From contig OZ024744.1 of the NCBI GenBank assembly GCA_964016885.1, forward strand, positions 115,506,001 through 115,570,000: 64,000 nucleotides of DNA, written 5' to 3'. A program made the position numbers and the translations under genes. Under the pieces are notes generated by a model that searched no databases, had not been told where the DNA came from, and saw only the letters and a list, made by a program, of their open reading frames with translations. The stretch comes from Eledone cirrhosa. Its lineage: Eukaryota. Of the stretch, positions 28,550 to 64,000 are shown piece after piece (position 1 is the first letter of the stretch; each line of letters opens with the position of its first letter).

Positions 28550-29113
28550 CGAATTAGCAACGGAGGTGGGTGCTCAGAAAGTACAATAACTAGGGTAAGA
28601 ACGGGATGGAAGAAGTTTAGGGAACTACTACCACTGCTAGCTGCAAAAGGCTTCTCCCTCAGAATGAAAGGCAGACTGTATGATGCGTGTATCCGAACAG
28701 CGATGTTGCATGGTAGTGAGACCTGGGCGCTGAAGGTGGAAGACTTACGTAGATTAGAGAGAAACGAAGCCTGCATGCTCCGATGGATGTGTAACAGTAA
28801 TATACGTGAACGACAAAGCATAAAGGAATTGAGAGAGAGACTGAGCATAAGAGGAATCAAATGCTGCGTGTAGGAGAGGCGGTTACGCTGGTATGGACAT
28901 GTGATGCGTATGAAGGATGACAGCTGCATAAAAAGGTGCAGAGTACTACAAGTTGATGGAAACCGCGGAGTGGGGAGACCCAAGATGACTTGGGATGAGG
29001 TGATAAAAGCCGACCTTACCCAACTACACCTCTCAAAGACAATGACACACGACCGTGACTTCTGGCGTCACGCAGTAATACAGGGTACCCGACCTCCCAT
29101 GGGTACATGCTGA
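28550..29113 (+). pseudogene. C-terminal ~187 codons of an RTE EN/RT polyprotein, one in-frame stop
   Basis: Seen: single frame RISNGGGCSESTITRVRTGWKKFRELLPLLAAKGFSLRMKGRLYDACIRTAMLHGSETWALKVEDLRRLERNE...IKCCV*ERRLRWYGHVMRMKDD...GRPKMTWDEVIKADL...MGTC*. The two + ORFs 28664-28873 and 28901-29113 are in frame, separated by TAG at 28871-28873. Confidence 0.92.
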
Positions 29114-29417
29114 AGCATATAAACAATATGCCCCCACTCCCCCCACCACAAGGTGGTCGTGGACGTGCCACGGCAAAAAAAGCACCCAGCCCACACTGTA
29201 AAGTGGATGTGTAGGTACCACGGAAAAAAGCACCCAGCACTCACTGTAAATGAGGTTGGTGTTAGGAAGGGCATCCAGCTGTAGAAATCAAGCCAGATCA
29301 GTTCCTGTATGAGCAAGGCATGGTCAGCCGACCAGACACTGCCCACAACAGGATAACCCGTCTAACCCATGCTAGCGTGGAAGAACGGACGTAAAACGGT
29401 GATGATGATGATGATGA
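28550..29417 (+). mobile_element. 5'-truncated RTE-clade LINE (ORF C-terminus, 3' UTR, (GAT)n tail) inserted in the satellite
   Basis: Seen: satellite stops at ...TAACAACAC (28549) and resumes TGTACCAGATG (29418); the element ends in a (GAT)n tail. Knowledge: GWKKFREL, LHGSETW, RLRWYGHV.R and GRPK.TW are typical of the post-RT region of RTE-type non-LTR retrotransposons. Confidence 0.93.
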
Positions 29418-32400
29418 TGTACCAGATGTGGTAGCAGAACTGTAATGTAGTCTAGGATGTCTGTATATAACAACACTGTCCCAGGTGTGGTAGCAATACT
29501 GTAATGTGGTCTAGGATGTCTGTATGTAACTACACTGTCCTAGATGTGGTAGAAGTACTGTAATGTAGTCTAGTATGGCTGTATGTAACAACACTGTCCC
29601 AGAGTTGGTAGCAGTACTGTAATGTAGTCTAGGATGTCTGTATGTAACAACACTGTCCTAGATATGGTAGCAGTACTGTAATGTAGTCTAGGATGTCTGT
29701 ATGTAACAACACTGTCCCAGATGTGGTAGCAGTACTGTAATGTGGTCTAGGATGTCTGTATGTAACAACAGTGTCCCAGATGTGGTAGCAGTACTGTAAT
29801 GTGGTCTAGGATGTCTGTATGTAACAACAGTGTCCTAGATCTGGTAGCAGTACTGTAATGTGGTCTAGGATATCTGTATGTAACAACACTGTCCCAGATG
29901 TGGTAGCAGTACTGTAATGTGGTCTAGGATATTTGTATGTAACACTGTCCCAGATGCGGTAGCAGTACTGTAATGTGGTCTAGGATGTATGTATGTCACA
30001 ACACTGTCCTAGATCTCATAGCAGTACTGTAATGTGGTCTAGGATGTCTGTATATAACAACACTGTACTAGATGTGGTAGCAGTACTATAATGTGGTCTA
30101 GGATGTCTGTATATAACAAGACTGTCCCAGATGTGGTCTAGGATGTCTGTATGTAACAACACTGTCTTAGGTGTGGTAGCAGTACTGTAATGTGGTCTAG
30201 GATTTCTGTATATAACAAGACTGTCCCAGATGTGTTAGCAGTACTGTAATGTAGTCTAGGATGTCTGTATATAACTACACTGTCCTAGATGTGGTAGCAG
30301 TACTGTAATGTGGTCTAGGGTGTCTGTATGTAACAACACTGTACCAGATGTGGTAGCAGCACTGTAATGTAGTCTAGGATGTCTGTATGTAACAACACTG
30401 TACCACATGTGGTAGCAGTACTGTAATGTGGTCTAGGATGTCTGTATGTAAAACTGTCCCAGATCTGGTAGCAGTACTGTAATGTGGTCTAGGATGTCTG
30501 TATATAACAAGACTGTCCAAGATGTGGTAGCAGTACTGTAATGTAGTCTAGGATGTCTATATGTAACAACACTGTCCCAGATGTGGTAGCAGTACTGTAA
30601 TGTGGTCTAGGATGTCTGTATGTAACAACACTGTCCCAGATGTGGTAGCAGTACTGTAATGTGGTCTAGGATGTCTGTATGTAACAACACTGTCCCAGAT
30701 GTGGTAGCAGTACTGTAATGTGGTCTAGGATCTCTGTATGTAACAACACTGTCCCAGATGTGGTAGCAGTACTGTAATGTAGTCTAGGATGTCTGTATGT
30801 AACAACACTGTACCAGGTGTGGTAGCAGTACTGTAATGTGGTCTAGCATGTCTGTATGTAACAGCACTGTCCCATATGTGGTAGCAGTACTGTAATGTAG
30901 TCTAAGATGTCTGTATGTAACTACACTCTCCTAGATGTGGTAGCAGTACTGTAATGTGGTCTAGGATCTCTGTATGTAACAACACTGTCCTAGATGTGGT
31001 AGCAGTACTGTAATGTGGTCTAGGATGTCTGTATGTAACAACACTGTCCTAGATGTGGTAGCAGTATTGTAATGTAGTCTAGGATGTCTGTATGTAACAA
31101 CACTGTCCTAGATGTGGTAGCAGTACTGTAATGTGGTCTAGAATGTCTGTATGTAACAACACTGTACCAGATGTGGTAGCAGTACTGTAATGTAGTCTAG
31201 GATGTCTGTATGTAACAACACTGTCCTAGATGTGGTAGTAGTACTGTAATGTGGTCTAGGATGTCTGTATAAAACAACACTGTACTAGATGTGGTAGCAT
31301 TACTGTAATGTGGTCTAGGATGTCTGTATGTAACAACACTGTACCAGATGTGGTAGCAGTACTGTAATGTGGTCTAGCATGTCTGTATGTAACAGCACTG
31401 TCCCATATGTGGTAGCTGTACTGTAATGTAGTCTAGGATGTCTGTATGTAACTACACTCTCCTAGATGTGGTAGCAGTACTGTAATGTGGTCTAGGATGT
31501 CTGTATGTAACAACACTGTCCTAGATGTGGTAGCAGTACTGTAATGTAGTCTAGGATGTCTGTATGTAACAACACAGTCCTAGATGTGGTAGCAGTACTG
31601 TAATGTAGTCTAGGATGTCTGTATGTAACAACACTGTACCAGATGTGGTAGCAGTACTGTAATGTGGTCTAGGATGTCTGTATGTAACTACACTGTCCCA
31701 GATATGGTAGCAGTACTGTAATGTAGTCTAGGATGTCACTATGTAACAACACTGTCCCAGATGTGGTAGCAGTACTGTAATGTGGTTTAGGATGTCTGTA
31801 TGTAATAACACTGTCCCAGATGTGGTAGCAGTACTGTAATGTGGTCTAGGATGTCTGTATGTAACAACACTGTCCCAGAGGTGGTAGCAAAACTGTAATG
31901 TGGTCTAGGATGTCTGTATATAACAACACTGTCCTAGATGTGGTAGTAGTACTGTAATGTAGTCTAGGATATCTGTAATTCACAACACTGCCCCAGATGT
32001 GGTAGCAGTACTGTAATGTAGTCTAGGATGTCTGTATATAACAACACTGTCCCAGATCTGGTAGCAGTACTGTAATGTGGTCTAGGGTGTCTGTATGAAA
32101 CAACACTGTCCATATCGGTAGCAGTACTGTAGCAGGTACTATGTTAACTGTATGTACAAGCACACGTACAGTATGGTAGCAGTACTGCAGTATTGTTGTA
32201 ACACACTGTCCAAGGGTCAGTTCTGTATGTAACGACACTGTCCCAGCTGTGGTAGCAGTACTGTAATGTGGTCTAGGATGTCTGTATGTAACAACACCTC
32301 CCACATGTGGTAACTGTACTGTAATGTGGTCTAGGATGTCTGTATATAACAACACTCTACCAGATGTGGTAGCAGTACTGTAATATAGTCTAGGATGTCT

Positions 32401-35400
32401 GTATGTAACAACACTGTCCCAGATGTGGTAGCAGTACTGTAATGTGGTCTAGGATGTCTGTATGTAAGAATACTGTACCAGATGTGGTAGCAGTACTGTA
32501 ATGTAGTCTAGGATGTCTGTATATAACAACACTATCCTAGATGTGGTAGCAGTACTGTAATGTAGTCTAGGATGTCCGTATGTAACAACACTGTCCCAGA
32601 TGTGGTAGCAGTACCGTAATGTTGTCTAGGATGTCTGTATGTAACAACAGTGTTCTAGATGTGGTAGCAGTACTGTAATGTAGTCTAGGATGTCTGTATG
32701 TAACAACACTGTCCCAGATGTGGTAGCAGTACTGTAATGTGGTCTAGGATGTCTGGATGTAACAACACTGTACCAGATGTGGTAGCAGTACTGTAATGTA
32801 GTCTAGGATGTCTGTATGTAACAACACTGTACCAGATGTGGTAGCAGTACTGTAATGTAGTCTAGGATGTCTGTATGTAACAACACTGTACCAGATGTGG
32901 TAGCAGTACTGTAATGTAGTCTAGGATGTCCGTATGTAACAACACTGTCCCAGATGTGGTAGCAGTACCGTAATGTGGTCTAGGATGTCTGTATGTAACA
33001 ACACTGTCCTAGATGTGGTAGTAGTACTGTAATGTAGTCTAGGATGTCTGTATGTAACAACACTGTCCCAGATGTGGTAGCAGTACTGTAATGTGGTCTA
33101 GGATGTCTGGATGTTACAACACTGTCCCTGATGTGGTAGCAGTACTGTAATGTGGTGTAGGATGTCAATATGTAACAACACTGTACCAGATGTGGTAGCA
33201 GTACTGTAATGTGGTCTAGGATGTCTGTACGTAAAAACACAGTCCTAGATGCGGGAGCAGTACTGTAATGTGGTCTAAGATGTCTGTATATAACAACACT
33301 GTCCCAGATGTGGTAGCAGTACTGTAATGTGGCCTAGGATCTCTGAATGTAACAACACTGTACCAGATGTGGTAGCAGTACTGTAATGTGGCCTAGGATG
33401 TCTGTATGTAACAACACTATGCCAGATGTGGTAGCAGTTCGGTAATATAGTCTAGGATGTCTGTATGTAACAACACTGTCCTAGATGTTGGAGCAGTACT
33501 GTAATGTGGTCTAGGATGTCTGTATGTAACAACACTGTCCTAGATGTAGTAGCAGTACTGTAATGTAGTCTAGGATGTCTGTATGTAACAACACTGTCCT
33601 AGATGTGGTAGCAGTACTGTGATGTAGTCTAGGATGTCTGTATGTAACAACACTGTCCTAGATGTTGTAGCAGTACTGTAATGTAGTCTAGGATGTCTGT
33701 ATATAACAACACTGTCCTAGATATGGTAGCAGTACTGTAATGTAGTCTAGGATGTCTGTATGTAACAACACTGTCCCAGATGTGGTAGCAGTACTGTAAT
33801 GTGGTCTAGCATGTCTGTATGTAACAACATTGTCCTAGATGTGGTAGCAGTAATGTAATGTAGTCTAGGATGTCTGTATATAACAACACTGTCCCAGATG
33901 TGGTAGCAGTACTGTAATGTAGTCTAGGATGTCTGTATGTAACAACACTGTCCCAGATGTGGTAGCAGTACTGTAATGTGGTCTAGCATGTCTGTATGTA
34001 ACAACATTGTCCTAGATGTGGTAGCAGTAATGTAATGTAGTCTAGGATGTCTGTATATAACAACACTGTCCCAGATGTGGTAGCAGTACTGTAATGTGGT
34101 CTAGGATGTCTGTATATAACAACACTGTCCCAGAGGTGGTAGCAGTACTGTAATGTGGTCTAGGATGTCTGTATATAACAACACTGTCCCAGGTGTGGTA
34201 GCAGTACTGTAATGTGGTCTAGGATGTCTGTCTGTAACAACACTGTCCCAGATGTGGTAGCAGTACTGTAATGTAGTCTAGGATGTCTGTATGTAACAAC
34301 ACTGTCCTACATGTGGTAGCAGTACTGTAATGTGGTCTAGGATGTCTGTATATAACACCACTGTCCTAGATGTGGTAGCAGTACTGTACTGTAATCTAGG
34401 ATGTCTGTCTGTAACAACACTGTCCCGGATGTGGTAGCAGTACTGTAATGTAGTCTAGGATGTCTGTATATAACAACACTGTACCAGATGTGGTAGAAGG
34501 ACTGTAATGTGGTCTAGGATGTCTGTATATAACAACACTGTCCCAGAAGTGGTAGCAGTACTGTAATGTAGTCTAGGATGTCTGTATGTAACAACACTGT
34601 CCCAGATGTGGTAGAAGGACTGTAATGTGGTCTAGGATGTCTGTATATAACAACACTGTCCTAGATGTGGTAGCAGTACTGTAATGTAGTCTAGCATGTC
34701 TGTATGTAACAACACTGTCCCAGATGTGGTAGCAGTACTGAAATGTGGTCTAGGATGTCTGTATATAACAACACTGTCCTAGATGTGGTAGCAGTACTGT
34801 AATGTAGTCTAGCATGTCTGTATGTAACAACACTGTCCCAGATGTTGTAGCAGTACTGTAATGTGGTCTATGATGTCTGTATGTAACAACACTGTCCCAG
34901 ATGTTGTAGCAGTACTGTAATGTGGTCTAGGATGTCTGTATGTAACACTGTCCCAGATGTGGTAGCAGTACTGTAATGTAGTCTAGGATGTCTGTATGTA
35001 ACAACACTGTCCTAGATGTAGTAGCAGTACTGTAATGTATTCTAGGATGTCTGTATGTAACAACACTGTCCCAGATGTGGTAGCAGTACTGTAATGTAGT
35101 CTAGGATGTCTGTATGTAACCACACTGTCCTAGATGTGGTAGCAGTACTGTACTGTAATCTAGGATGTCTGTCTGTAACAACACTGTCCCAGATGTGGTA
35201 GCAGTACTGTAATGTGGTCTAGGATATCTGTATGTAATAACACTGTACCAGATGTGGTAGCAGTACTGTAATGTGGTCTAGGATGTCTGTATGTAACAAC
35301 ACTGTCCCACATGTGGTAGCAATACTGAAATGTAGTCTAGGATGTCTGTATATAACAACACTGTCCCAAATGTGGTAGCAGTACTGTAATGAGGTCTAGG

Positions 35401-38400
35401 ATGTCTCTATGTAACAACACTGTACCAGATGTGGTAGCAGTACTGTAATGTAGTCTAGGATGTCTGTATGTAACAACACCGTAGCAGATGTGGTAGCAGT
35501 ACTGTAATGTAGTCTAGGATGTCTGTATGTACCAACACTGTCAAAGATGTGGTACAGTACTGAAATGTAGTCTAGGATGTCTGTATGTAACAACACTGTC
35601 CCAGATGTGGTAGCAGTACTGTAATGTTGTCTAGGATGTCTGTTTGTAACAACACTGTCCCAGATGTGGTAGCAGTACTGTAATGTCATCTAGGATGTCT
35701 CTATGTACCAACACTGTCCCGGATGTGGTAGCAGTACTGTAATGTGGTCTACGATGTCTGTATGTAAAAACACAGTACTAGATGCGGGAGCAGTACTGTA
35801 ATGCAGTCTAGGATGTCTGTATGTAAAACACAGTACTAGATGTGGGAGCAGTACTGTAATGTGGTCTAGGATGTCTGTATGTAACAACATTGTCCCTGAT
35901 GTGGTAGCAGTACTGTAATGTGGTCTAGGATGTCTGTATATAACAACACTGTACTAGATGCGGGAGCAGTACTGTAATGTGGTCTAGGATGTCTGTATGT
36001 AACAACACTGTCCCAGATCTGGTAGCAGTACTGTAATGTGGTCTAGGATCTCTGAATGTAACAACACTGTACCAGATGTGGTAGCAGTACTGTAATGTGG
36101 TGTAGGATGTCTATATGTAACAACACTGTCCCAGATGTGTTAGCAGTACTGTAATGTTGTCTAGGATGTCTGTATGTAAGAACACTGTCCCACATGTGGT
36201 AGTAGTACTGTAATATGGTCTAGGAAGTCTGTAGGTAATAACAACACTGTCGCAGATGTGGTAGCACTACTTTAATGTGGTCTATGATGTCTGTATGTAA
36301 CAACACTGTCCTAGGTGTGGTAGCAGTACTGTAATGTGGTCTAGGATGTCTGTATGTAACAACACTGTCCTAGATGTGGTAGCAGTACTGTAATGTAGTC
36401 TAGGATGTCTGTATGTAACAACACTGTCCTAGATATAGTAGCCATACTGTAATGTAGTGTAGGATGTCTGTATATATCAACACAGTCCCAGATGTGGTAG
36501 CAGTACTGGAATGTGGTCTAGGATGTCTGTATGTAACAACACTGTCCTAGATGTGGTAGTAGTACTGTAATGTTGTCTAGGATGTCTGTATGTAACAATA
36601 CTGTCCCAGGTGTGGTAGCAGTACTGTAATGTGGTCTAGGATGTCTGTACGTAACAACACTGTACCAGACGTGGTAGCAGTACTGTAATGTGGTCTAGGA
36701 TGTCTGTATATAACAACACTGTCCTAGATGTGGTAGCAGTACTGTAATATAGTCTAGCATGTCTGTATGTAACAACACTGTCCCAGACGTGGTAGCAGTA
36801 CTGTAATGTAGTCTAGCATGTCTGTATGTAACAATACTGTCCCAGATGTGGTAGCAGTACTGTAATGAGGTCTAGGATGTCTGTATGTTAAAACACTGTA
36901 CCAGATGTGGTAGCAGTACTGTAATTTGGTCTAGGATGTCTGTATGTAACAACACTGTCCGAGATGTTGTAGCAGTACTGTAATATGGTCTAGGATGTCT
37001 CTAAGTAACAACACTGTCCCACATGTGGTAGCAGTACTGTAATGTGGTCTAGGATGTCTGTATATAAGACTGACCCGGATGTGGTAGCAGTACTGTAATG
37101 TAGTGTAGGATGTCTGTATGTAACAACACTGTACCAGATGTGGTGGCAGTACTGTAATGAGGTCTAGGATGTCTGTGTGTAACATCACTGTCCCCGATGT
37201 GGTAGCAGTACTGTAATGTTGTCTAGGATGTCTGTATGTAACAACACTGTCCCAGATGTGGTAGCAGTACTGTAATGTGGTCTAGGATGTCTCTATATAA
37301 CAACACTATCCTAGATATGGTAGCAGTACTGTAATGTAGTCTAGGCTGTCTGTATGTAACAACACTGTCCTAGATGTGGTAGCAGTACTGTAATGTAATC
37401 TAGGATGTCTGTCTGTAACAACACTGTCCCAGATGTGGTAGCAGTACTGTAATGTGGTCTAGGATATCTGTATGTAATAACACTGTACCAGATGTGGTAG
37501 CAGTACTGTAATGTGGTCTAGGATGTCTGTATGTAACAACACTGTCCCACATGTGGTAGCAATACTGAAATGTAGTCTAGGATGTCTGTATATAACAACA
37601 CTGTCCCAAATGTGGTAGCAGTACTGTAATGAGGTCTAGGATGTCTGTATGTAACAACACTGTCCCAGATGTGGCGGCAGTACTGTAATATAGTCTACGA
37701 TGTCTGTATGTAACAACACTGTGCCAGATGTGGTAGCAGTACTGTAATGTGGTCTAGGGTGTCTGTATATAACAACACTGCCCCAGATGTGGTAGCAGTA
37801 CTGTAATGTGGTCTAGCATGTCTGTATGTAACAACACTGTCCCAGATGTGGTAGCAGTAATGTAATGTGGTCTAGGACGTCTGTATGTAACAACACTGTA
37901 CCAGATGTGGTAGAAGTACTGTAATGTGGTCTAGGATGTCTCTATGTAACAACACTGTCCTATTTATGGTAGCAGTACTGTAATGTGGCCTAGGAAGTCA
38001 GTATGTAACAACACTGTACTAGATGCGGGAGCAGTACTGTAATGTGGTCTAGGATGTCTATATGTAACAACACTGTCTTAGATGTGGTAGCAGTACTGTA
38101 ATGTGGTCTAGGATGTCTGTATGTAACAACACTGTCCTAGATGTGGTAGCAGTACTGTAATGTGGTCTAGGATGTCTGTATGTAACAACACTGTCCTAGG
38201 TGTGGTAGCAGTACTGTAATGTGGTGTAGGAAGCCTGTATGTAACAACACTGTACCAGATGTGGTAGCAGTACTGTAATGTGGTCTAGTATGTCTGTATG
38301 TAACAACACTGTCCTATTTATGGTAGCAGTACTGTACTGTGGTCTAGGATGTCTGTATATAACAACACTATCCTAGATGTGGTAGCAGTACTGTAATGTA

Positions 38401-41400
38401 GTCTAGGATGTCTGTATGTGACAACACTGTCCCAGATGTGGTAGTGGTACTGTAATGTGGTCTAGTATGTCTGTATGTAACAACACTGTCCTAGATGTGG
38501 TAGCCGTACTGTAATGTAGTCTAGGATGTCTGTATGTCACAACACTGTACCAGATGTGGTAGCTGTACCTTAATGTGGTCTAGGATGTCTGTATGTAACA
38601 ACACTGTACCAGATGTGGTAGTAGTACTGTAATGTGGTCTAGGATGTCTGTATGTAACAACACTGTCCTAGATGTGGTAGCAGTACTGTAATGTGGTCTA
38701 GGATGTCTGTATGTAACAACACTGTACCAGACGTGGTAGCAGTACTGTAATGTGGTCTAGGATGTCTATATAACAACACTGTCCCAGATGTGGTAGCAGT
38801 ACTGTAATGTAGTCTAGGATGTCTGTATGTAACAACACTGTCCCAGATGTGGTAGCAGTACTGTAATGTGGTCTAGGATGTCTGTATGTAACAACACTGT
38901 CCTAGATGTGGTAGCAGTACTGTAATGTAGTCTAGGATGTCTGTATGTGACAACACTGTCCCAGATGTGGTAGTGGTACTGTAATGTTGTCTAGTATGTC
39001 TGTATGTAACAACACTGTCCCAGATGTGGTAGCAGTACTGTAATGTGGTCTAGGATGTCTGTATGTAACAACACTGTCCTAGATGTGGTAGCAGTACTGT
39101 AATGTGGTCTAGGATGTCTGTATGTAACAACACTGTCCCAGATGTGGTAGCAGTACTGTAATGTGGTCTAGGATGTCTGTATGTAACAACACTGTCCCAG
39201 ATGTGGTAGCAGTACTGTAATGTAGTCTAGGATGTCTGTATGTAACAACACTGTCCCAGATGTGGTAGCAGTACTGTAATGTAGTCTAGGATGTCTGTAT
39301 ATAACAACACTGTACCAGATGTGGTAGCAGTACTGTAATGTGGTCTAGGATGTCTGTATATAACAACACTGTACCAGACGTGGTAGCAGTACTGTAATGT
39401 GGTCTAGGATGTCTGTATTTAACAACACTGTCCCAGATGTGGTAGCAGTACTGTAATGTGGTCTAGGATGTCTGTATGTAACAACACTGTCCCAGATGTG
39501 GTAGCAGTACTGTAATGTGGTCTAGGATGTCTGGATGTAACAACACTGTCCTAGATGTGGTAGCAATACTGTAATGTGGTCTAGGATGTCTGTATGTAAC
39601 AATACTGTCCCAGATGTGGTAGCAGTACTGTAATGTGGTCTAGGATGTCTGTATGTAACAATACTGTCCCAGATGTGGTAGCAGTACTGTAATGTAGTCT
39701 GAGATGTCTGTATGTAACAACACTGTCCCAGACGTAGTAGCAGTACTGTAATGTTGTCTAGGATGTCTGTATGTAACAACACTGTCCCAGATCTGGTAGT
39801 AGTACTGTAATGTGGTGTAGGATGTCTGTATATAACAACACTGTCCCAGATGTGGTATCAATGCTGTAATGTGGTCTAGGATGTCTGTATGTAACAACAC
39901 TGTCCCAGATGTGGTAGCAGTACTGTAATGTGGTGTAGGATGTCTGTATGTAACAACACTGTCCCCGATGTGGTAGCAGTACTGTAATGTAGTCTAGGAT
40001 GTCTCTATATAACAACACTGTCCCAGATGTGGTAGCAGTACTGTAATGTGGTCTAGGATGTCTGTATGTAACAACACTGTCCTAGATGTGGTAACAGTAC
40101 TGTAATGTGGTCTAGGATGTCTATGTAACAACACTGTCCCAGATGTGGTAGCAATGCTGTAATGTGGTCTAGGATGTCTGTATATAACAACACTGTCCTA
40201 GATGTGGTAGCAGTACTGTAATGTGGTCTAGGATGTCTGTATGTAACAACACTGTCCTAGATGTGGTAACAGTACTGTAATGTGGTCTAGGATGTCTATG
40301 TAACAACACTGTCCCAGATGTGGTAGCAATGCTGTAATGTGGTCTAGGATGTCTCTATATAACAACACTGTCCCAGATGTGGTAGCAGTACTGTAATGTG
40401 GTCTAGGAAGTCTGTATGTAACAACACTGTCCCAGATGTGGTAGCAGTACTGTAATGTGGTCTAGGATGTCTGTATGTAACAACACTGTACCAGATGAGG
40501 TAACAGTACTGTAATGCAGTCTAGTATGTCTGTGGGTATCAACACTGTCCCAGATGTGGTAGCAGTACTGTAATGTGGTCTAGGATGTCTGTAACACCAC
40601 TGTCCCAGATGTGGTAGCAGTACTGTAATGTGGTCTAGGATGTCTGTATATAACAACACTGTCCCAGATGTGGTAGCAGTACTGTAATGTGGTCTACGAT
40701 GTCTGTATGTAACAACACTGTACCAGATGTGGTAGCAGGACTGTAACGTGGTCTAGGATGTCAGTATGTAACAACACTGACCCAGGTGTGGTAGCAGTAC
40801 TGTAAGTGGTCTAGGATGTCTGTATGTAACAACACTGTCCCAGGTGTGGTAGCAGTACTGTAATGTGGTCTAGGATGTCTGTATGTAACAACACTGTCCT
40901 AGATGTGGTAGCAGTACTGTAATATAGTCTAGGATGTCTGTATGTAACAACACTCTCCTAAATGTGGTAGCAGTACTGTAATGTGGTCTAAGATATCTGT
41001 ATATAACAACACTGTCCCAGATGTAGTAGCAGTACTGTAATGTAGTCTAGGATGTCTGTATGTAACAACACTGTCCCAGATGTGGTAGCAGTACTATAAT
41101 GAGGTCTAGGGTGTCTGTAACACCATTGTCCCAGATGTGGTAATTATACTGTAATATAGCCTAGGATGTCTGTATGTAATATCAACACTGTCCTAGATGT
41201 GGTAGCAGTACTGTAATGTGATCTAGGATGTCTGTATGTAACAACACTGTCCTAGATGTGGTAGCAGTACTGTAATGTAGTCTAGGATGTCTGTATGTAA
41301 CTACACTGTCCCAGATGTGGTAGCAGTACTGTAATGTTGTCTAGGATGTCTGTATGTAAGAACACTGTCCCACATGTGGTAGCAGTACTGTAATGTGGTC

Positions 41401-52519: not shown

Positions 52520-52872
52520 TCAGAAGCAACTGTCTCCAACTGGATCCCCAAGTGTGACCAGCCAAGCTCATGGATGTTATCCAAACATCTTGTTCAGGGT
52601 CTACTCCCGGGTCTCCTACCAGTTGGTTTTGCTTTTGCCCATAAAATCTGTCCAGCGATTCTTTCCTGAGATATTTAAAACACATGTCTATAGTATCAGA
52701 GAAGTAGTGGCTCTACCTGGAGTGACTCTCCAAGCTACGCACTCTATCGAGTAACATTACTCCAAAGATCCTTTGGAGTAACCCCATTTTGGCCACTTGT
52801 ATTTGCGATCATATTTCGGTCATTACCCAAGATTCATGACCATAAGGTAAGGGTTGGCACAAAAACTGAATT
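52520..52872 (-). mobile_element. Decayed C-terminal fragment of an Expander/Rex3-like RTE
   Basis: Seen (with frameshifts): SVFVPTLTYGHESWVMTE.I*SQIQVAKMGLLQRIFGVMLLDRVRSLE..LQVEPLLL...SQERIAGQILWAKAKPTGRRPGSRP*TRCLDNIHELGWSHLGIQ. Lineage assignment is from recall. Confidence 0.85.
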
Positions 52873-52873
52873 C

Positions 52874-53592: not shown

Positions 53593-53722
53593 AGCTAGGA
53601 ATGGCATATAGGTGTAGAAATCATGCCAAAATGGATTGTGTGAGCAAACCATGTCTAGTTTCAGAACCTGTCGAACCCATGCCAATATGGGAAAATGCTG
53701 TAAAATGGTGGCGGCAATGATA
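53593..53722 (+). mobile_element. RTE (or RTE-mobilised SINE) 3' terminal segment following the 48-bp array
   Basis: Seen: CTAGGAATGGCATATAGGTGTAGAAATCATGCCA...CCTGTCGAACCCATGCCAATATGGGAAAATGCTGTAAAATGGTG aligns to 29262-29402. Confidence 0.85.
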
Positions 53723-53913
53723 ATAATTGTTTCTACTTTAGGCACAAGGCCAGCAATTACCCTGTGCATTACTGGTACTTTATTTTATCGACCCCGTAAG
53801 GATGAAAGGCAAAGTCAACCTCGGCGGGATTTGAACTCAGATCGTAAAGGGACGTAACTATGCTGGAAAGCATGGCGTCCGACCCTCTACCAATACTGCC
53901 AATCCACCGCCCT
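53720..53913 (-). mobile_element. tRNA-derived SINE
   Basis: Seen (minus): GGCGG head, A-box-like TGGCAGTATTGG, B-box GAGTTCAAATCCC, central GTTGACTTTGCCTTTCATCCTTACGGGGTCGATAAAATAAAGTACCAG, 3' GGCCTTGTGCCTAAAGTAGAAAC plus ATT tail. From recall this is an abundant octopus SINE with a conserved (Meta-type) core; unchecked. Confidence 0.8.
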
Positions 53914-54338: not shown

Positions 54339-55117
54339 GTGTAATAAGGGGGCAGAGATCACCAACTACTACCACAACCACTACAACTACCACTACTACC
54401 ACAACCACTACAACTACCACTACTAACACAACCACTACAACAGCTAATACAACCACTACTATCACTACAACTAGAATAGTTACAACCACTACAACTACAA
54501 CAGCTACAACCACTACCACTACAACAGCTACAACCACTACTACAACCACTACCACTACAACAACTACAACCACAACCACAGCTACCACCACTACCACTAC
54601 AACAGCTACTACCACTACTACTACAACTGCTACAACTGCTACAACTACTACAACCACTACCACAACAACAACTACAGCCACAATTATAACCACTACCTCT
54701 ACAACAGCTACAACCTCTACCACTACAACTACTACTACTAATACAACCATTACCACAAACACTACCACTACTACAGCTACAACCACTACCACTACAGCTA
54801 CAACCACTACCTCTACTACAGCTACAACCACTACAACAACAACAACTATTACAACTACTACAACCACTACAACAAGTACAACCACTACCACCACAACAAC
54901 TGCTACAACAACAACAACCACTACAACAGCTACAACTATTACAGCTACAATCATAACCACTACTACTACCACTACAACAGCTACTACTATCACTACTACA
55001 GCTACAACCACTACACAACATTTTTTGTAATGTACAACATCAACTTTTCATTTACCAATATTTTGGTATCAGACTCAGGCCAAATTATCTACTCTGGGGT
55101 CCCAAATGATGGGGATG
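54339..55117 (+). CDS. Candidate mucin-like Thr-rich exon (needs a 1-nt correction near 55015)
   Basis: Seen: AG at 54337-54338; open frame VIRGQRSPTTTT... to TAA at 55028-55030; after a 1-nt shift, TTFFVMYNINFSFTNILVSDSGQIIYSGVPNDGD then G|GTATGG. Exon status is inference only. Confidence 0.35.
54362..55020 (+). repeat. Imperfect (ACN)n trinucleotide tract (Thr-codon rich); possibly coding
   Basis: Seen: ACT/ACA/ACC with interspersed GCT, in strict triplet phase for about 220 triplets. Confidence 0.95.
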
Positions 55118-55152
55118 GTATGGAATAAGTGGGGTGTGGGTGGAATAAGTGG

Positions 55153-58100
55153 AGTGCTACATGGTAGTGAGAGATGGGTAGTAAATGTAGAGGATGTGTG
55201 AAGGGTAGATTGTATGATGTCTGTGTATGTTACATGGTAGTGTGACATGGGTAGTAAATGTAGAGGATGTGTGAAGGGTAGATTGTATGATGTCTGTGTT
55301 ACATGGTAGTGAGACATGGGTATTGAATGTAGAGGATGTGTGAAGGGTAGATTGTATGATGTATGTGTTACATGGTAGTGAGACATGGTTATTGAATGTA
55401 GAGGATGTGTGAAGGGTAGATTGTATGATGTCTGTGTATGTTACATGGTAGTGTGACATGGGTAGTTAATATAGAGGATGTGTGAGGGGTAGATTGTATG
55501 ATGTCTGTGTATGTTACATGGTAGTGAGACATGGGTAGTTAATGTAGAGGATGTGTGAAGGGTAGATTGTATGATGTCTATGTATGTTACATGGTAGTGA
55601 GACATAGGTAGTTAATGTAGAGGATGTGTGAAGGGTAGATTGTATGATGTCTGTGAATGTTACATGGTAGTGGGACATGGGTAGTTAATGTAGAGGATGT
55701 GTGAAGGGTAGATTGTATGATGTCTGTGTATGTTACATGGTAGTGAGCCATGGGTAGTTAATGTAGAGGATGCGTGAAGGGTAGATTGTATGATGTCTAT
55801 GTTACATGGTAGTGAGACATGGGTATTGAATGTAGAGGATGTGTGAAGGGTAGATTGTATGATGTCTGTGTTACATGGTAGTGAGACATGGGTATTGAAT
55901 GTAGAGGATGTGTGAAGGGTAGATTGTATGATGTCTGTGTTACATGGTAGTGAGACATGGGTAGTTAATGTAGAGGATGTGTGAAGGGTAGAGTGTATGA
56001 TGTATGTGTATGTTACATGGTAGTGGGCCATGGGTAGGTAATGTAGAGGATGTGTGAAGGGTAGATTGTACGATGTCTATGTTACATGGTAGTGAGACAT
56101 GGGTATTGAATGTAGAGGATGTGTGAAGGGTAGATTGTATGATGTATGTGTATGTTACATGGTAGTGGGACATGGGTAGTTAATGTAGAGGATGTGTGAA
56201 GGGTAGATTGTATGATGTCTATGTTACATGGTAGTGAGACATGGGTATTGAATGTAGAGGATGTGTGAAGGGTAGATTGTATGATGTATGTGTTACATGG
56301 TAGTGAGACATGGTTATTGAATGTAGAGGATGTGTGAAGGGTAGATTGTATGATGTCTGTGTATGTTACATGGTGGTGTGACATGGGTAGTTAATGTAGA
56401 GGATGTGTGAGGGGTAGATTGTATGATGTCTGTGTATGTTACATGGTAGTGAGACATGGGTAGTTAATGTAGAGGATGTGTGAAGGGTAGATTGTATGAT
56501 GTCTATGTTACATGGTAGTGAGACATGGGTAGTTAATGTAGAGGATGTGTGAAGGGTAGATTGTATGATGTCTGTGTATGTTACATGGTAGTGTGACATG
56601 GGTAGTTAATGTAGAGGATGTGTGAATGGTAGATTGTACGATGTCTGTGTATGTTACATGGTAGTTAGACATGGGCAGTTAATATAGAGGATGTGTGAAG
56701 GGTAGATTGTATGATGTCTGTGTATGTTACATGGTAGTGAGCCATGGGTAGTTAATGTAGAGGATGTGTGAAGGGTAGATTGTATGATGTCTGTGTATGT
56801 TACATGGTAGTGAGACATGGGTAGTTAATGTAGAGGATGTGTGAAGGGTAGATTGTATGATGTCTGTGTATGTTACATGGTAGTGAGACATGGGTAGTTA
56901 ATGTAGAGGATGTGTGAAGGGTAGATTGTATGATGTCTGTGTTACATGGTAGTGAGACATGGGTATTGAACGTAGAGGATGTGTGAAGGGTAGATTGTAT
57001 GATGTCTGTGTATGTTACATGGTAGTGGGCCATGGGTAGGTAATGTAGAGGATGCGTGAAGGGTAGATTGCATGATGTCTATGTTACATGGTAGTGAGAC
57101 ATGGGTATTGAATGTAGAGGATGTGTGAAGGGTAGATTGTATGATGTCTGTGTATGTTACATGCTAGTGGGCCATTGGTAGGTAATGTAGAGGATGTGTG
57201 AAGGGTAGATTGTTTGATGGATGTGTTACATGGTAGTGAGACATGTGTAGTTAATGTAGAGGATGTGTGAAGGGTAGATTATATGATATCTGCGTGTGTT
57301 ACATGGTAGTGTGACATGGGTAGTTAATGTAGAGGATGTGTGAAGGGTAGATTGTATGATATCTATGTTACATGGTAGTGAGACATGGGTAGTTAATGTA
57401 GAGGATGTGTGAATGGTAGATTGTATGATGTCTGTGTATGTTACATGGTAGTGTGACATGGGTAGTTAATGTAGAGGATGTGTGAAGGGTAGATTGTATG
57501 ATATCTATGTTACATGGTAGTGAGACATGGGTAGTTAATGTAGAGGATGTGTGAATGGTAGATTGTATGATGTCTGTGTATGTTACATGGTAGTGAGACA
57601 TGGGTAATTAATGTAGAGGATGTGTGAAGGGTAGATTGTATGATGTCTGTGTATGTTACATGGTAGTGTGACATGGGTAGTTAATGTAGAGGATGTGTGA
57701 AGGGTAGATTGTATGATGTCTGTGTATGTTACATGGTAGTGAGACATGGGTAGTTAATGTAGAGGATGTGTGAAGGGTAGATTGTATGATGTTTATGTTA
57801 CATGGTAGTGAGACATGGGTATAGAATGTAGAGGATGTGTGAAGGGTAGATTGTATGATGTCTGTGTATGTTACATGGTAGTGTGACATGGGTAGTTAAT
57901 GTAGAGGATGTGTGAAGGGTAGATTGTATGATGTATGTGTTACATGGTAGTGGGACATAGGTAGTTAATGTAGAGGATGTGTGAAGGGTAGATTGTATGA
58001 TGTCTATGTTACATGGTAGTGAGACATGGGTATTGAATGTAGAGGATGTGTGAAGGGTAGATTGTATGATGTCTGTGTATGTTACATGGTAGTGAGACAT

Positions 58101-61100
58101 GGGTAGTTAATGTAGAGGATGTGTGAAGGGTAGATTGTATGATGTCTGTGTATGTTACATGGTAGTTAGACATGGGTAGTTAATGTAGAGGATGTGTGAA
58201 GGGTAGATTGTAAGATGTCTGTGTATGTTGCATGGTAGTGAGATATGGGTAGTTAATGTAGAGGATGTGTGAAGGGTAGATTGTAAGATGTCTGTGTATG
58301 TTACATGGTAGTGAGACATGGGTAGTTAATGTAGAGGATGTGTGAATGGTAGATTGTAAGATGTCTGTGTATGTTACATGGTAGTTAGACATGGGTAGTT
58401 AATGTAGAGGAAGTGTGAAGGGTAGATTGTAAGATGTCTGTGTATGTTACATGGTAGTGAGACATGGGTAGTTAATGTAGAGGATGTGTGAATGGTAGAT
58501 TGTACGATGTCTGTGTATGTTACATGGTAGTTAGACATGGGCAGTTAATGTAGAGGATGTGTGAAGGGTAGATTGTATGATGTCTGTGTATGTTAGATGG
58601 TAGTGAGCCATGGGTAGTTAATGTAGAGGATGTGTGAAGGGTAGATTGTATGATGTCTATGTTACATGGTAGTGAGACATAGGTAGTTAATGTAGAGGAT
58701 GTGTGAAGGGTAGATTGTATGATGTCTGTGTATGTTACATGGTAGTGAGACATGGGTAGTTAATGTAGAGGATGTGTGAAGGGTAGATTGTATGATGTCT
58801 GTGTATGTTACATGGTAGTTAGACATGGGTAGTTAATGTAGAGGATGTGTGAAGGGTAGATTATATGATGTCTGCGTATGTTACATGGTAGTGTGACATG
58901 GGTAGTTAATGTAGAGGATGTGTGAAGGGTAGATTGTATGATATCTATGTTACATGGTAGTGAGACATGGGTAGTTAATGTAGAGGATGTGTGAATGGTA
59001 GATTGTATGATGTCTGTGTATGTTACATGGTAGTGTGACATGGGTAGTTAATGTAGAGGATGTGTGAAGGGTAGATTGTATGATATCTATGTTACATGGT
59101 AGTGAGACATGGGTAATTAATGTAGAGGATGTGTGAAGGGTAGATTGTATGATGTCTGTGTATGTTACATGGTAGTGTGACATGGGTAGTTAATGTAGAG
59201 GATGTGTGAAGGGTAGATTGTATGATGTCTGTGTATGTTACATGGTAGTGAGACATGGGTAGTTAATGTAGAGGATGTGTGAAGGGTAGATTGTATGATG
59301 TCTATGTTACATGGTAGTGAGACATGGGTATTGAATGTAGAGGATGTGTGAAGGGTAGATTGTATGATGTCTGTGTATGTTACATGGTAGTGAGACATGG
59401 GTAGTTAATGTAGAGGATGTGTGAAGGGTAGATTGTATGATGTCTATGTTACATGGTAGTGAGACATGGGTATTGAATGTAGAGGATGTGTGAAGGGTAG
59501 ATTGTATGATGTCTGTGTATGTTACATGGTAGTGAGACATGGGTAGTTAATGTAGAGGATGTGTGAAGGGTAGATTGTATGATGTCTGTGTATGTTACAT
59601 GGTAGTTAGACATGGGTAGTTAATGTAGAGGATGTGTGAAGGGTAGATTGTAAGGTGTCTGTGTATGTTACATGGTAGTGAGACATGGGTAGTTAATGTA
59701 GACGATGTGTGAATGGTAGATTGTAAGATGTCTGTGTATGTTACATGGTAGTGAGACATGGGTAGTTAATGTAGAGGATGTGTGAATGGTAGATTGTAAG
59801 ATGTCTGTGTATGTTACATGGTAGTTAGACATGGGTAGTTAATGTAGAGGATGTGTGAAGGGTAGATTGTAAGATGTCTGTGTATGTTACATGGTAGTGA
59901 GACATGGGTAGTTAATGTAGAGGATGTGTAAATGGTAGATTGTACGATGTCTGTGTATGTTACATGGTAGTTAGACATGGGCAGTTAATGTAGAGGATGT
60001 GTGAAGGGTAGATTGTATGATGTCTGTGTATGTTAGATGGTAGTGAGCCATGGGTAGTTAATGTAGAGGATGTGTGAAGGGTAGATTGTATGATGTCTAT
60101 GTTACATGGTAGTGAGACATAGGTAGTTAATATAGAGGATGTGTGAAGGGTAGATTGTATGATGTCTGTGTATGTTACATGGTAGTGAGACATGGGTAGT
60201 TAATGTAGAGGATGTGTGAAGGGTAGATTGTATGATGTCTGTGTATGTTACATGGTAGTTAGACATGGGTAGTTAATGTAGAGGATGTGTGAAGGGTAGA
60301 TTGTATGATGTCTGTGTATGTTACATGGTAGTGGGACATGGGTAGTTAATGTAGAGGATGTGTGAAGGGTAGATTGTATGATGTCTGTGTATGTTACATG
60401 GTAGTGAGCCATGGGTAGCTAATGTAGAGGATGTGTGAAGGGTAGATTGTATGATGTCTATGTTACATGGTAGTGAGACATGGGTATTGAATGTAGAGAA
60501 TGTGTGAGGGGTAGATTGTATGATGTCTGTGTATGTTACATGGTAGTGAGACATGTGTAGTTAATGTAGAGGATGTGTGAAGGGTAGATTGTATGATGTC
60601 TATGTTACATGGTAGTGAGACATGGGTATTGAATGTAGAGGATGTGTGAAGGGTAGATTGTATGATGTCTGTGTATGTTACATGGTAGTGTGACATGGGT
60701 AGTTAATGTAGAGGATGTGTGAAGGGTAGATTGTATGATGTATGTGTTACATGGTAGTGGGACATGGTTAGTTAATGTAGAGGATGTGTGAAGGGTAGAT
60801 TGTATGATGTCTATGTTACATGGTAGTGAGACATGGGTTTTGAATGTAGAGGATGTATGAAGGGCAGATTGTATGATGTCTGTGTATGTTACATGGTAGT
60901 GAGACATGGGTAGTTAATGTAGAGGATGTGTGAAGGGTAGATTGTATGATGTCTGTGTATGTTACATGGTAGTTAGACATGGGTAGTTAATGTAGAGGAT
61001 GTGTGAAGGGTAGATTGTAAGATGTCTGTGTATGTTACATGGTAGTGAGACATGGGTAGTTAATGTAGAGGATGTGTGAATGGTAGATTGTAAGATGTCT

Positions 61101-64000
61101 GTGTATGTTACATGGTAGTGAGACATGGGTAGTTAATGTAGAGAATGTGTGAAGGGTAGATTGTATGATATCTGTGTATGTTACATGGTAGTGAGACATG
61201 GGTAGTTAATGTAGAGGATGTGTGAATGGTAGATTGTAAGATGTCTGTGTATGTTGCATGGTAGTGAGATATGGGTAGTTAATGTAGAGGATGTGTGAAG
61301 GGTAGATTGTAAGATGTCTGTGTATGTTACATGGTAGTGAGACATGGGTAGTTAATGTAGAGAATGTGTGAAGGGTAGATTGTATGATATCTGTGTATGT
61401 TACATGGTAGTGAAACATGGGTAGTTAATGTAGAGGATGTGTGAATGGTTGATTGTAAGATGTCTATGTTACATGGTAGTGAGACATGGGTAGTTAATGT
61501 AGAGGATGTGTGAATGGTAGATTGTACGATGTCTGTGTATGTTACATGGTAGTTAGACATGGGCAGTTAATGTAGAGGATGTGTGAAGGGTAGATTGTAT
61601 GATGTCTGTGTATGTTAGATGGTAGTGAGCCATGGGTAGTTAATGTAGAGGATGTGTGAAGGGTAGATTGTATGATGTCTATGTTACATGGTAGTGAGAC
61701 ATAGGTAGTTAATGTAGAGGATGAGTGAAGGGTAGATTGTATGATGTCTGTGTATGTTACATGGTAGTGAGACATGGGTAGTTAATGTAGAGGATGTGTG
61801 AAGGGTAGATTGTATGATGTCTGTGTATGTTACATGGTAGTTAGACATGGGTAGTTAATGTAGAGGATGTGTGAAGGGTAGATTGTATGATGTCTGTGTA
61901 TGTTACATGGTAGTGTGACATGGGTAGTTAATGTAGAGGATGTGTGAGGGTTAGATTGTATGATGTCTGTGTATGTTACATGGTAGTGAGACATGGGTAG
62001 TTAATGTTGAGGATGTGTGAAGGGTAGATTGTATGATGTCTATGTTACATGGTAGTGAGACATGGGTATTGAATGTAGAGGATGTGTGAAGGGTAGATTG
62101 TATGATGTCTGTGTATGTTACATGGTAGTGTGACATGGGTAGTTAATGTAGAGGATGTGTGAAGGGTAGATTGTATGATGTCTGTGTATGTTACATGGTA
62201 GTGAGACATGGGTAGTTAATGTAGAGGATGTGTGAATGGTAGATTGTAAGATGTCTGTGTATGTTGCATGGTAGTGAGATATGGGTAGTTAATGTAGAGG
62301 ATGTGTGAAGGGTAGATTGTAAGATGTCTGTGTATGTTACATGGTAGTGAGACATGGGTAGTTAATGTAGAGGATGTGTGAATGGTAGATTGTAAGATGT
62401 CTGTGTATGTTACATGGTAGTTAGACATGGGTAGTTAATGTAGAGGATGTGTGAAGGGTAGATTGTAAGATGTCTGTGTATGTTACATGGTAGTTAGACA
62501 TGGGCAGTTAATGTAGAGGATGTGTGAAGGGTAGATTGTATGATGTCTGTGTATGTTACATGGTAGTGTGACATGGGTAGTTAATGTAGAGGATGTGTGA
62601 AGGGTAGATTGTATGATGTCTGTGTATGTTACATGGTAGTGAGCCATGGGTAGCTAATGTAGAGGATGTGTGAAGGGTAGATTGTATGATGTCTATGTTA
62701 CATGGTAGTGAGACATGGGTATTGAATGTAGAGGATGTGTGAAGGGTAGATTGTATGATGTCTGTGTATGTTACATGGTAGTGAGACATGGGTAGTTAAT
62801 GTAGAGGATGTGTGAAGGGTAGATTGTATGATGTCTGTGTATGTTACATGGTAGTGTGACATGGGTAGTTAATGAAGAGGATGTGTGAAGGGTAGATTTA
62901 TGATATCTATGTTACATGGTAGTGAGACATGGGTAGTTAATGTAGAGGATGTGTGAATGGTAGATTGTATGATGTCTGTGTATGTTACATGGTAGTGAGA
63001 CATGGGTAATTAATGTAGAGGATGTGTGAAGGGTAGATTGTATGATGTCTGTGTATGTTACATGGTAGTGTGACATGGGTAGTTAATGTAGAGGATGTGT
63101 GAAGGGTAGATTGTATGATGTCTGTGTATGTTACATGGTAGTGAGACATGGGTAGTTAATGTAGAGGATGTGTGAAGGGTAGATTGTATGATGTCTATGT
63201 TACATGGTAGTGAGACATGGGTATTGAATGTAGAGGATGTGTGAAGGGTAGATTGTATGATGTCTGTGTATGTTACATGGTAGTGTGACATGGGTAGTTA
63301 ATGTAGAGGATGTGTGAAGGGTAGATTGTATGATGTATGTGTTACATGGTAGTGGGACATGGTTAGTTAATGTAGAGGATGTGTGAAGGGTAGATTGTAT
63401 GATGTCTATGTTACATGGTAGTGAGACATGGGTATTGAATGTAGAGGATGTGTGAAGGGTAGATTGTATGATGTCTGTGTATGTTACATGGTAGTGAGAC
63501 ATGGGTAGTTAATGTAGAGGATGTGTGAAGGGTAGATTGTATGATGTCTGTGTATGTTACATGGTAGTTAGACATGGGTAGTTAATGTAGAGGATGTGTG
63601 AAGGGTAGATTGTAAGATGTCTGTGTATGTTACATGGTAGTGAGACATGGGTAGTTAATGTAGAGGATGTGTGAATGGTAGATTGTAAGATGTCTGTGTA
63701 TGTTACATGGTAGTGAGACATGGGTAGTTAATGTAGAGAATGTGTGAAGGGTAGATTGTATGATATCTGTGTATGTTACATGGTAGTGAGACATGGGTAG
63801 TTAATATAGAGGATGTGTGAATGGTAGATTGTAAGATGTCTGTGTATGTTGCATGGTAGTGAGATATGGGTAGTTAATGTAGAGGATGTGTGAAGGGTAG
63901 ATTGTAAGATGTCTGTGTATGTTACATGGTAGTGGGACATGGGTAGTTAATGTAGAGGATGTGTGAATGGTAGATTGTAAGATGTCTGTGTATGTTACAT
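55153..64000 (+). repeat. 73/69-bp satellite array (~120 copies, continues past window end) derived from RTE C-terminal coding sequence
   Basis: Seen: GTTACATGGTAGTGAGACATGGGTAGTTAATGTAGAGGATGTGTGAAGGGTAGATTGTATGATGTCTGTGTAT (73 bp) and 4-nt-shorter variants. Plus strand spells LHGSETWVVNVEDV and VKGRLYDVCV. Confidence 0.97.

What the first reader, a model, noticed from the sequence alone, without database searches (positions are those of the whole stretch)
28550..64000. RTE LINE as a 'satellite factory': neighbouring arrays each amplified from a different part of one LINE family
Seen: three arrays align to RTE copies present in this same window. The 54-mer maps to the endonuclease segment, the 73/69-mer to the KGRLYDAC..LHGSETW..VED segment, and the 48-mer to the 3' UTR repeat. 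The 59-mer may be a fourth. Knowledge: TE-derived satellites are known, usually as isolated cases. Inference: three or four independent births side by side, with similar unit sizes (48-73 bp), suggest a locus- or lineage-specific process that turns decayed RTE sequence into long arrays. Microhomology-seeded duplication followed by unequal exchange or rolling-circle amplification would fit. Such arrays could also produce LINE-matching small RNAs.
Basis: partly seen in the sequence, partly recalled or inferred. Interest (0 to 1): 0.85.

Follow-up and report, generated by a model that had tools for sequence, protein, structure and literature searches.

The report
Satellites born inside decayed octopus LINEs
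In what is likely an octopus genome, three neighbouring tandem arrays are made wholly or partly of pieces of decayed LINE retrotransposons that are still attached to them, likely through ordinary local duplication and expansion in a LINE-littered region rather than a LINE-specific process; the largest array shows no LINE match.

Summary
Mostly real, over-interpreted. The 73/69-mer (123 units) and 48-mer (15 units) match the RTE-type LINE far beyond shuffles (z 7.4, 12.8). The 54-mer (128 units) matches no other copy in the window, but sits in place at the 5' end of a decayed copy and fits the endonuclease at the expected position (p 0.002). About 36 of its 54 nt are endonuclease; the rest probably comes from a neighbouring second LINE family, making it a junction chimera. 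The 59-mer (about 700 units, 41 kb) failed every RTE test. The RTE copy at 28550-29417 is a young insertion into that array, not a template. This LINE family fills 46-55% of the non-array DNA, so 3 of 4 arrays being RTE-derived is unremarkable locally (P 0.26-0.39). Best model: microhomology- or internal-repeat-seeded duplication, then unequal exchange, in a transposon graveyard. No sign of rolling-circle periodicity. Precedents: SINE-derived satellites of squamates, LTR-retrotransposon-derived satellites of Lathyrus, the 'recycling yard' hypothesis. Open lead: all four seeds lie near the 5' ends of their fragments (post hoc p about 0.02), hinting at seeding during insertion.

The parts
1..28549 (+). 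59-bp satellite, left part (485 units, 4.4% from consensus; runs off the window); no detectable LINE origin
   Evidence: negative tests
678..12681 (+). 6,003-bp block duplicated once inside the 59-mer array, 2 mismatches in 6,001 bp (recent unequal exchange or assembly duplication)
28550..29417 (+). R1: 5'-truncated RTE-type LINE (last ~185 codons, one stop; 3' region with a 2-copy ~48-bp repeat; (GAT)n tail) inserted in phase into the 59-mer array with no target-site duplication; member of a young, very abundant subfamily
   Evidence: read consensus identical to 28556-28585 and 28633-28662 in 382,000-460,797 reads per run
29418..42313 (+). 59-bp satellite, right part (217 anchors; same consensus as left part)
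42314..42712 (-). Decayed RTE fragment (post-RT region) holding a 137-bp two-copy tandem duplication at 42426-42688: an unexpanded seed
42712..42885 (.). Inverted pair of RTE 3'-end pieces (minus-strand piece, then plus-strand 3' end with tail)
43173..43866 (+). Fragment of a second LINE family (RT N-terminal half)
43892..43990 (+). RTE C-terminal remnant
   Evidence: tblastn E 2e-5
44038..45605 (-). N2: decayed RTE copy, endonuclease C-terminus through RT with internal deletion; 70% identical to R1 in the shared part; direct continuation of the 54-mer array
45606..52511 (-). 54-bp array, 128 units, 2.3% from consensus, two interspersed variants; about 36 nt are RTE endonuclease (S-H-L-I-T-stop-Q-S-G-E-D-T), about 15-18 nt probably the end of the neighbouring second-family fragment; contains a 9-bp inverted repeat
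52512..52873 (-). 3' fragment of the second LINE family, separating the 54- and 48-mer arrays
   Evidence: tblastn E 7e-8 at 52734-52850; translation
52874..53592 (+). 48-bp array, 15 units: expansion of the 2-copy repeat in the RTE 3' region
53593..53725 (+). RTE 3' end and decayed tail, collinear continuation of the 48-mer array
54361..55015 (+). ACN-type degenerate microsatellite, no LINE match
55085..55157 (+). Degraded RTE piece upstream of the 73-mer (ending W-N-K..E-L), joined to the first unit through a shared CTAC
   Evidence: p 0.025-0.039 against three related copies
55158..64000 (+). 73/69-bp array, 123+ units: RTE segment K-G-R-L-Y-D-x-C-V / M-L-H-G-S-E-T-W..E-D with a 10-nt internal deletion; 74% identical to R1, 76% to N2; runs off the window

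Best explanation
Three arrays (73/69, 54 and 48 bp) and a 137-bp dimer consist wholly or partly of RTE-type LINE sequence and sit attached to the decayed copies they match; they likely arose there by short-homology or internal-repeat duplication and were likely lengthened by unequal exchange or slippage, a generic process acting on whatever DNA fills this likely heterochromatic region. Steps. (1) Shown: nested, truncated LINE remnants of two families make up about two thirds of the non-array DNA. (2) Shown for the 73-mer, inferred for the others: a first duplication between short imperfect homologies (about 11 nt for the 73-mer; a shared Thr codon and a 9-bp hairpin for the 54-mer; a ready-made 2-copy repeat for the 48-mer). 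(3) Inferred: growth by block duplications of irregular length. (4) Shown: the 59-mer array predates R1, which inserted into it; the origin of the 59-mer is unresolved and no RTE link was detected. The LINE supplies raw sequence; nothing found requires LINE proteins for the expansion.
For: Each array continues collinearly into its parent: 54-mer into endonuclease codons of N2, 48-mer into the RTE 3' end, 73-mer from a degraded upstream piece. Family share of non-array DNA 2,970 of 5,432 bp (54.7%), 46.1% without R1, 63.8% with the second family: P(3 or more of 4) = 0.39, 0.26, 0.54; the largest array and the microsatellite show no RTE match. The 73-mer join matches 11 of 14 nt at the parent's start side (R1) and 11 of 13 at the end side (N2). 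A size series of 2, 2, 15, 123+, 128 units is present. Exact internal matches occur at irregular lags (6003, 810, 594, 472, 3716 bp), the 54-mer shows no dominant higher-order period (0.974-0.979 across its top 15 lags), and variants are irregularly interspersed. Precedent: PMC10702118, PMC7004042, PMC12628747; RTE-BovB type greatly expanded in cephalopods (PMC10294476).
Against: Against a genome-wide LINE share of 12.9% (O. vulgaris, PMC13282606) 3 of 4 would be enriched (P 0.008); the local null assumes the region was LINE-rich before the arrays formed. n is 4 arrays at one locus, so the test has little power. The second LINE family (811 bp) seeded no array wholly of its own. All four seeds lie near the 5' ends of their fragments (post hoc p 0.018), which a position-blind process does not predict. 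In human, direct-repeat and slippage models explained only about 6% of TE-derived repeats (PMC3389668). Heterochromatic location is not shown.
Confidence: 0.6

Rival explanations
1. Seeds are made during insertion: the first duplication forms at or near the 5' truncation junction when cDNA re-anneals or switches template, and generic mechanisms then expand it.
For: The 54-mer spans the junction between the second-family fragment and the 5' end of a 1.55-kb RTE copy; the 48-mer begins its fragment; the 137-bp dimer starts within about 20 bp of its fragment's 5' end; the 73-mer within about 160 parental bases. Combined post hoc p 0.018 with hand-set probabilities. None lies at a 3' end in the 3 cases where both sides are visible. 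Precedent: 136 partial-Alu duplications discussed as 5'-end events (PMC3389668); microhomologies and target rearrangements at 5' junctions of R1/R2 (PMC2718515 passages).
Against: Pattern noticed after the fact, 4 cases, driven mainly by the 54-mer. Fragment ends may be later deletions (the 73-mer's first unit is itself deleted). Squamate SINE satellites keep a parent flank on either end. The young insertion R1 has a clean 5' junction.
Confidence: 0.2
2. An RTE-specific or lineage-specific 'factory' converts this family into arrays, for example by rolling-circle amplification.
For: 3 arrays plus 1 dimer from one family within 22 kb; P 0.008 against a genome-wide LINE share of 12.9%.
Against: Local share explains the count; 41 of 58.6 kb of array is the 59-mer with no RTE match; no regular periodicity of variants; monomers are 23-26% diverged from the copies here and carry stops or deletions fixed in all units.
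Confidence: 0.08
3. The arrays are members of dispersed satellite families born elsewhere and carried here with their flanks by segmental duplication, so they are neighbours by collection, not by birth.
For: Summed contig depth in the 59-mer and 54-mer bins (36,635 and 3,834 in run X1) is about 9-36 times what the window's own units would give (1,018-2,106 and 213-441).
Against: The tool states that these sums are no copy number; branching short contigs would inflate them (inference), and the 59-mer runs off the window. An exact 283-bp contig over 42573-42855 has depth 2.9, i.e. low copy. Parent flanks are collinear and nested with each other here.
Confidence: 0.08
4. Array lengths and adjacency are partly assembly artefacts.
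For: A 6,003-bp duplication with only 2 mismatches; no laid contig spans the stretch.
Against: Junctions are biologically coherent (in-phase insertion of R1, collinear flanks); units carry 2-5% structured variation; 59- and 54-mer sequence is present in public contigs.
Confidence: 0.04

Closest known systems
SINE-derived satellites (sSat) of squamate reptiles, PMC10702118 (abstract and passages)
   Same: Units of about 70-290 nt from 5', middle or 3' parts of a retroelement; a few to hundreds of units; a terminal unit continuing into the parent on one side; alternating sub-variants; independent origins.
   Different: Parent here is an autonomous-type LINE, including coding sequence; several different births lie within 22 kb; units are 48-73 nt; multi-locus spread is untested here.
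'TE graveyard / recycling yard' hypothesis for composite satellite monomers, PMC12628747 (section 5 and passages)
   Same: Nested, truncated, degraded TE remnants give rise to monomers; almost any part of any TE can be tandemised; composite monomers with pieces of different TEs; inverted repeats in monomers.
   Different: There it is a hypothesis from monomers whose parents are lost; here the 54-mer appears to be such a composite with both parents still attached on either side.
Satellites from tandem repeats inside LTR retrotransposons in Lathyrus sativus, PMC7004042 (abstract only)
   Same: An element-internal repeat expands, and expansion is favoured by chromosomal region; matches the 48-mer.
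   Different: LTR element in a plant; 9 of 11 major satellites, genome-wide; the 54- and 73-mers here come from non-repetitive coding sequence.
TE-derived minisatellites in human, PMC3389668 (abstract, section 3 part 1, section 3.4)
   Same: 7,276 of 31,472 (23%) minisatellites derive from TEs, mostly single-locus, grown by local duplication.
   Different: Mostly 2-3 units; here over 120 units and kilobases.
LINE-ORF-derived satellites: chicken HinfI (CR1), Phodopus PROsat (L1 ORF2), cetacean common satellite (L1 3' end), as listed in review PMC9659126 (passages)
   Same: Monomer taken from LINE coding or 3' sequence.
   Different: Single satellites, no parent flank described in the passages seen; 'RTE' occurs 0 times in that review.
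RTE-generated microsatellite families in Lepidoptera, PMC2887409 (abstract only)
   Same: RTE elements as a source of tandem repeats; simple-repeat 3' tails as in R1.
   Different: Microsatellites from the tail, not 48-73-bp arrays from internal sequence.

Membership tests
TE-derived satellite / minisatellite | Head-to-tail array of many similar units | tested here: met
   128, 15 and 123+ units, 2.3-4.6% from consensus
TE-derived satellite / minisatellite | Monomer matches a TE segment better than shuffles: 73-mer and 48-mer | tested here: met
   z 7.4 and 12.8; protein profile p 0.0099 for the 73-mer
TE-derived satellite / minisatellite | Same, 54-mer | tested here: met
   positional p 0.002; not significant without the positional prior
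TE-derived satellite / minisatellite | Same, 59-mer | tested here: not met
   0 of 5, p 0.62, 0 of 24 tests
TE-derived satellite / minisatellite | Born in place: array continues into the parent element | tested here: met
   54-mer and 48-mer on the 3' side; 73-mer on the 5' side, weakly, 3' side outside the window
Composite ('graveyard') monomer | Monomer holds pieces of two different TEs (54-mer) | tested here: inconclusive
   First 6 codons score poorly in the endonuclease register and continue the A-x-E-R-x-x-W frame of the second-family flank, but no close second-family C-terminus was found
Classical heterochromatic satellite family | Very long or multi-locus arrays in heterochromatin | not testable with these tools
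   no genome held; read depth is no copy number
RTE clade non-LTR retrotransposon (parent family) | One ORF with AP-type endonuclease and RT | tested here: met
   full-length relatives of about 1,050 aa carry PF03372 + PF00078; window fragments map along them
RTE clade non-LTR retrotransposon (parent family) | 3' end in a short simple repeat | tested here: met
   (GAT)n tail at 29401-29417; feature of RTE per PMC2887409 abstract
RTE clade non-LTR retrotransposon (parent family) | RT phylogeny places it in the RTE clade | not tested
   no named reference set at hand; the label rests on architecture and recall; identity with RTE-2_OV (PMC9115989) not established
Rolling-circle-amplified array | Regular repetition of one variant block | tested here: not met
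   flat lag profile and irregular variants; later scrambling could erase the signal
piRNA / siRNA source locus | Small RNAs map to the arrays | not testable with these tools
   no RNA holder listed

The most novel reading that the evidence does not exclude
LINE insertion itself makes satellite seeds: tandem duplications form at the 5' truncation junction of RTE copies, sometimes fusing target and element into a composite monomer (the 54-mer, with both parents still attached), and regions prone to expansion then grow them to kilobases. Octopus genomes would then hold a directly readable birth series of LINE-derived satellites.
Probability: 0.2. Interest if true: 0.68.

Novelty: new member of a known kind. 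Interest (0 to 1): 0.42.

Why it matters
Satellite monomers usually lose the trace of their origin. Here 2-, 15- and 120+-unit stages sit within 22 kb with parents attached, so breakpoints and seeding homologies can be read directly, and the 54-mer may be a concrete case of the composite monomers proposed in PMC12628747. That makes the locus a good worked example and gives a cheap genome-wide test: do arrays start at 5' insertion junctions? It is not a new class of process. My searches (listings only) showed no paper on RTE-derived satellites in octopus, but the library lacks most subscription journals.

Tried and rejected
No genome is held, so no genome-wide test. 59-mer as RTE-derived: rejected in registers near the 73-mer source, the YADD motif (a tblastn hint at E 2.3, positional p 0.19) and after the adjacent broken copy; 59-mer vs 73-mer p 0.06-0.51; an internal 28/31-bp sub-repeat suggested by TRF is not significant (p 0.34). 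54-mer against DNA of distant element L001: not significant. R1 as template: rejected, it interrupts the 59-mer in phase and monomers are 26% from it. Scans for more host DNA: 1 distant locus in metagenome contigs, none in genome contigs or viral contigs. Word-indexed protein searches for the second family found nothing; the HMMER scan found 162 relatives. Rfam on 42300-55400: one chance hit (E 0.1). No RNA holder listed. RAD-seq reads show about zero depth on the 59-mer, uninformative for reduced-representation data. Copy number from contig depth: rejected as unreliable. Earlier scan notes: 3 look-ups, nothing. The first version of the polarity idea (all arrays exactly at 5' ends) was weakened when RTE sequence was found upstream of the 73-mer.
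Full report
Setting. The window is 91.5% tandem DNA (58,568 of 64,000 bp): a 59-mer (1-42313, interrupted), a 54-mer, a 48-mer, a microsatellite and a 73/69-mer. No genome is held. The host is likely an octopus (inference): among 76 relatives of the LINE fragment at 28562-28870, three named ones are Octopus bimaculoides proteins at 65-70% identity, while named Hydractinia proteins reach 55-60%. Full-length relatives are single ORFs of about 1,050 aa with endonuclease and RT domains. The label RTE rests on this architecture, the simple-repeat tail and recall; I built no tree. Public contigs of run X1 include an exact 283-bp match to 42573-42855, so the species is represented there, possibly by the assembled sample itself.

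What lies between the arrays. tblastn with full-length relatives maps the main family to 28550-29417 (R1, +), 42346-42741 (-), 43892-43987 (+), 44038-45589 (N2, -) and 53596-53653 (+), and a second LINE family to 43173-43866 (+) and 52734-52850 (-). The second family resembles Expander/Rex3-type elements (recalled, not tested). The main family covers 2,970 of 5,432 non-array bases (54.7%; 46.1% without R1; 63.8% with the second family and without R1). These are lower bounds, as some untranslated pieces were not counted.

73/69-mer: confirmed. It beats 300 dinucleotide shuffles against R1 (z 7.4) and N2 (z 5.4) and 100 shuffles against a protein profile. The unit is the segment K-G-R-L-Y-D..M-L-H-G-S-E-T-W..E-D with a 10-nt deletion, 62 of 84 nt identical to R1 and 65 of 85 to N2. 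The join is readable both as the start and as the end of the parental segment: 11 of 14 matches to R1's start side and 11 of 13 to N2's end side, overlapping by about 11 nt. That is the expected trace of duplication between imperfect short homologies; it uses two different relatives as stand-ins for the lost parent. A degraded upstream piece lies at 55085-55157 (p 0.025-0.039 against three related, non-independent copies). The far end is outside the window.

48-mer: confirmed, but not a new birth. R1 already holds two copies of the unit at 29155-29250 (z 12.8), and the array runs straight on into the element's 3' end and tail. It is an element-internal repeat grown from 2 to 15 units.

54-mer: confirmed with a correction. 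It matches no other copy in the window (0 of 5), is not significant in an unrestricted profile search (p 0.089) and not against DNA of the distant element L001. But N2's endonuclease codons begin exactly at its edge, and in the 28-residue register just upstream the monomer beats all 500 shuffles (p 0.002). Residue by residue, S-H-L-I-T-stop-Q-S-G scores well, whereas the six codons before it score poorly and continue the frame of the second-family fragment (A-x-E-R-x-x-W, with the W codon intact in most internal units). A conserved Thr codon fits both registers. I read the monomer as about 36 nt of endonuclease plus 15-18 nt of the neighbour (about 60% likely); no close second-family C-terminus was found to settle it. 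The unit contains a 9-bp inverted repeat (folding z -2.5; the other three monomers lie within 0.7).

59-mer: not confirmed. It failed 5 DNA tests, the profile search, 3 positional protein tests and 21 restricted DNA tests. R1 sits inside it in phase, with no target-site duplication and the same consensus on both sides. Two 30-nt loose-end consensuses carried by 382,000-460,797 of about 12.5 million RAD reads per run are identical to R1 (agreement 0.96-0.99), so R1 belongs to a young, abundant, uniform subfamily. It is a late passenger, not the source of any array.

Is it RTE-specific? With the local share as null, 3 or more of 4 long arrays has P 0.26-0.54, and 4 or more of 6 tandem features P 0.27-0.62. 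Against the genome-wide LINE share of O. vulgaris (12.9%, PMC13282606, first two of three parts read) P is 0.008, so the region is unusual; but what is unusual is a LINE-saturated, array-saturated region, and its biggest array shows no RTE match. Four arrays give little power, and the genome-wide test remains to be done.

How did the arrays grow? Long exact matches occur at irregular lags, including one 6,003-bp block with 2 mismatches. The two 54-mer variants and the 73/69 variants are irregularly mixed. Neighbouring 59-mers are barely more alike (0.060) than distant ones (0.065-0.071). This fits repeated unequal exchange, conversion or slippage (inference) and gives no sign of rolling-circle copying. 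Contig depth over the 59- and 54-mer bins is about 9-36 times the window-only expectation, but the tool states that it is no copy number, so single- versus multi-locus stays open.

One unexplained pattern. All four seeds lie at or near the 5' end of their fragments, and the 54-mer straddles the junction. A post hoc combination with hand-set probabilities gives p 0.018, mostly from the 54-mer. This could mean seeding at insertion or merely later deletion. It is the most novel reading left (20%).

Comparison. It works like, and is a member of, TE-derived satellites/minisatellites (73-, 48-, 54-mer). Squamate SINE satellites show the same anatomy (PMC10702118, passages); 9 of 11 major Lathyrus satellites come from element-internal repeats and expand by region (PMC7004042, abstract); 23% of human minisatellites are TE-derived (PMC3389668); and PMC12628747 proposes that degraded TE graveyards yield composite monomers. 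PMC9115989 (passages and section 6) describes an octopus RTE, but I could not link it to this family. Six searches (listings only) showed no report of RTE-derived arrays in octopus. I opened no supplementary files; repeat libraries there or in the Zenodo deposit of PMC13282606 may already list these monomers.

Verdict. A real and unusually legible cluster of LINE-derived arrays, best explained by generic expansion in a LINE graveyard (60%).

Noticed in passing
window 29256-29290 and L001:480-515: A motif in R1's 3' region (just after the 48-bp repeat) aligns closely with sequence upstream of the ORF in the distant full-length element L001, so this 3' region may have been captured from a 5' UTR, or the 48-mer's parent may be a bipartite non-autonomous derivative. 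An older copy at 43892-43990 ends without this extension.
   Followed up: partly
window 678-12681: 6,003-bp tandem block duplication with 2 mismatches inside the 59-mer array: very recent event or assembly duplication.
   Followed up: partly
window 28550-29417: R1 inserted without a target-site duplication; its subfamily accounts for about 3-4% of reads in two RAD libraries, suggesting very many near-identical copies.
   Followed up: partly
window 42314-42885: Inverted arrangement (minus-strand body, inverted 3' piece, plus-strand 3' end) at the right edge of the 59-mer array; resembles an inverted insertion but with a large gap.
   Followed up: partly
window 53730-53920: About 190-bp element that looks like an abundant octopus SINE (recalled, no call supports the name); no Rfam match.
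   Followed up: no
window 54361-55015: ACN-type microsatellite, open as a poly-Thr frame on + and poly-Val on -; no evidence of a gene.
   Followed up: no
window 32132-32221: 90-bp stretch of strongly degenerate 59-mer units inside the array; also a 40-bp unit near 30091.
   Followed up: partly
window 55158-64000: Extreme strand skew of the 73-mer (C 4%, G 35%), inherited from or exaggerated beyond the purine-rich LINE sense strand.
   Followed up: no
P0075: A protein labelled Herbaspirillum MAG is 82% identical to R1 over 43% of the query: probably host DNA in a metagenome-assembled genome.
   Followed up: no
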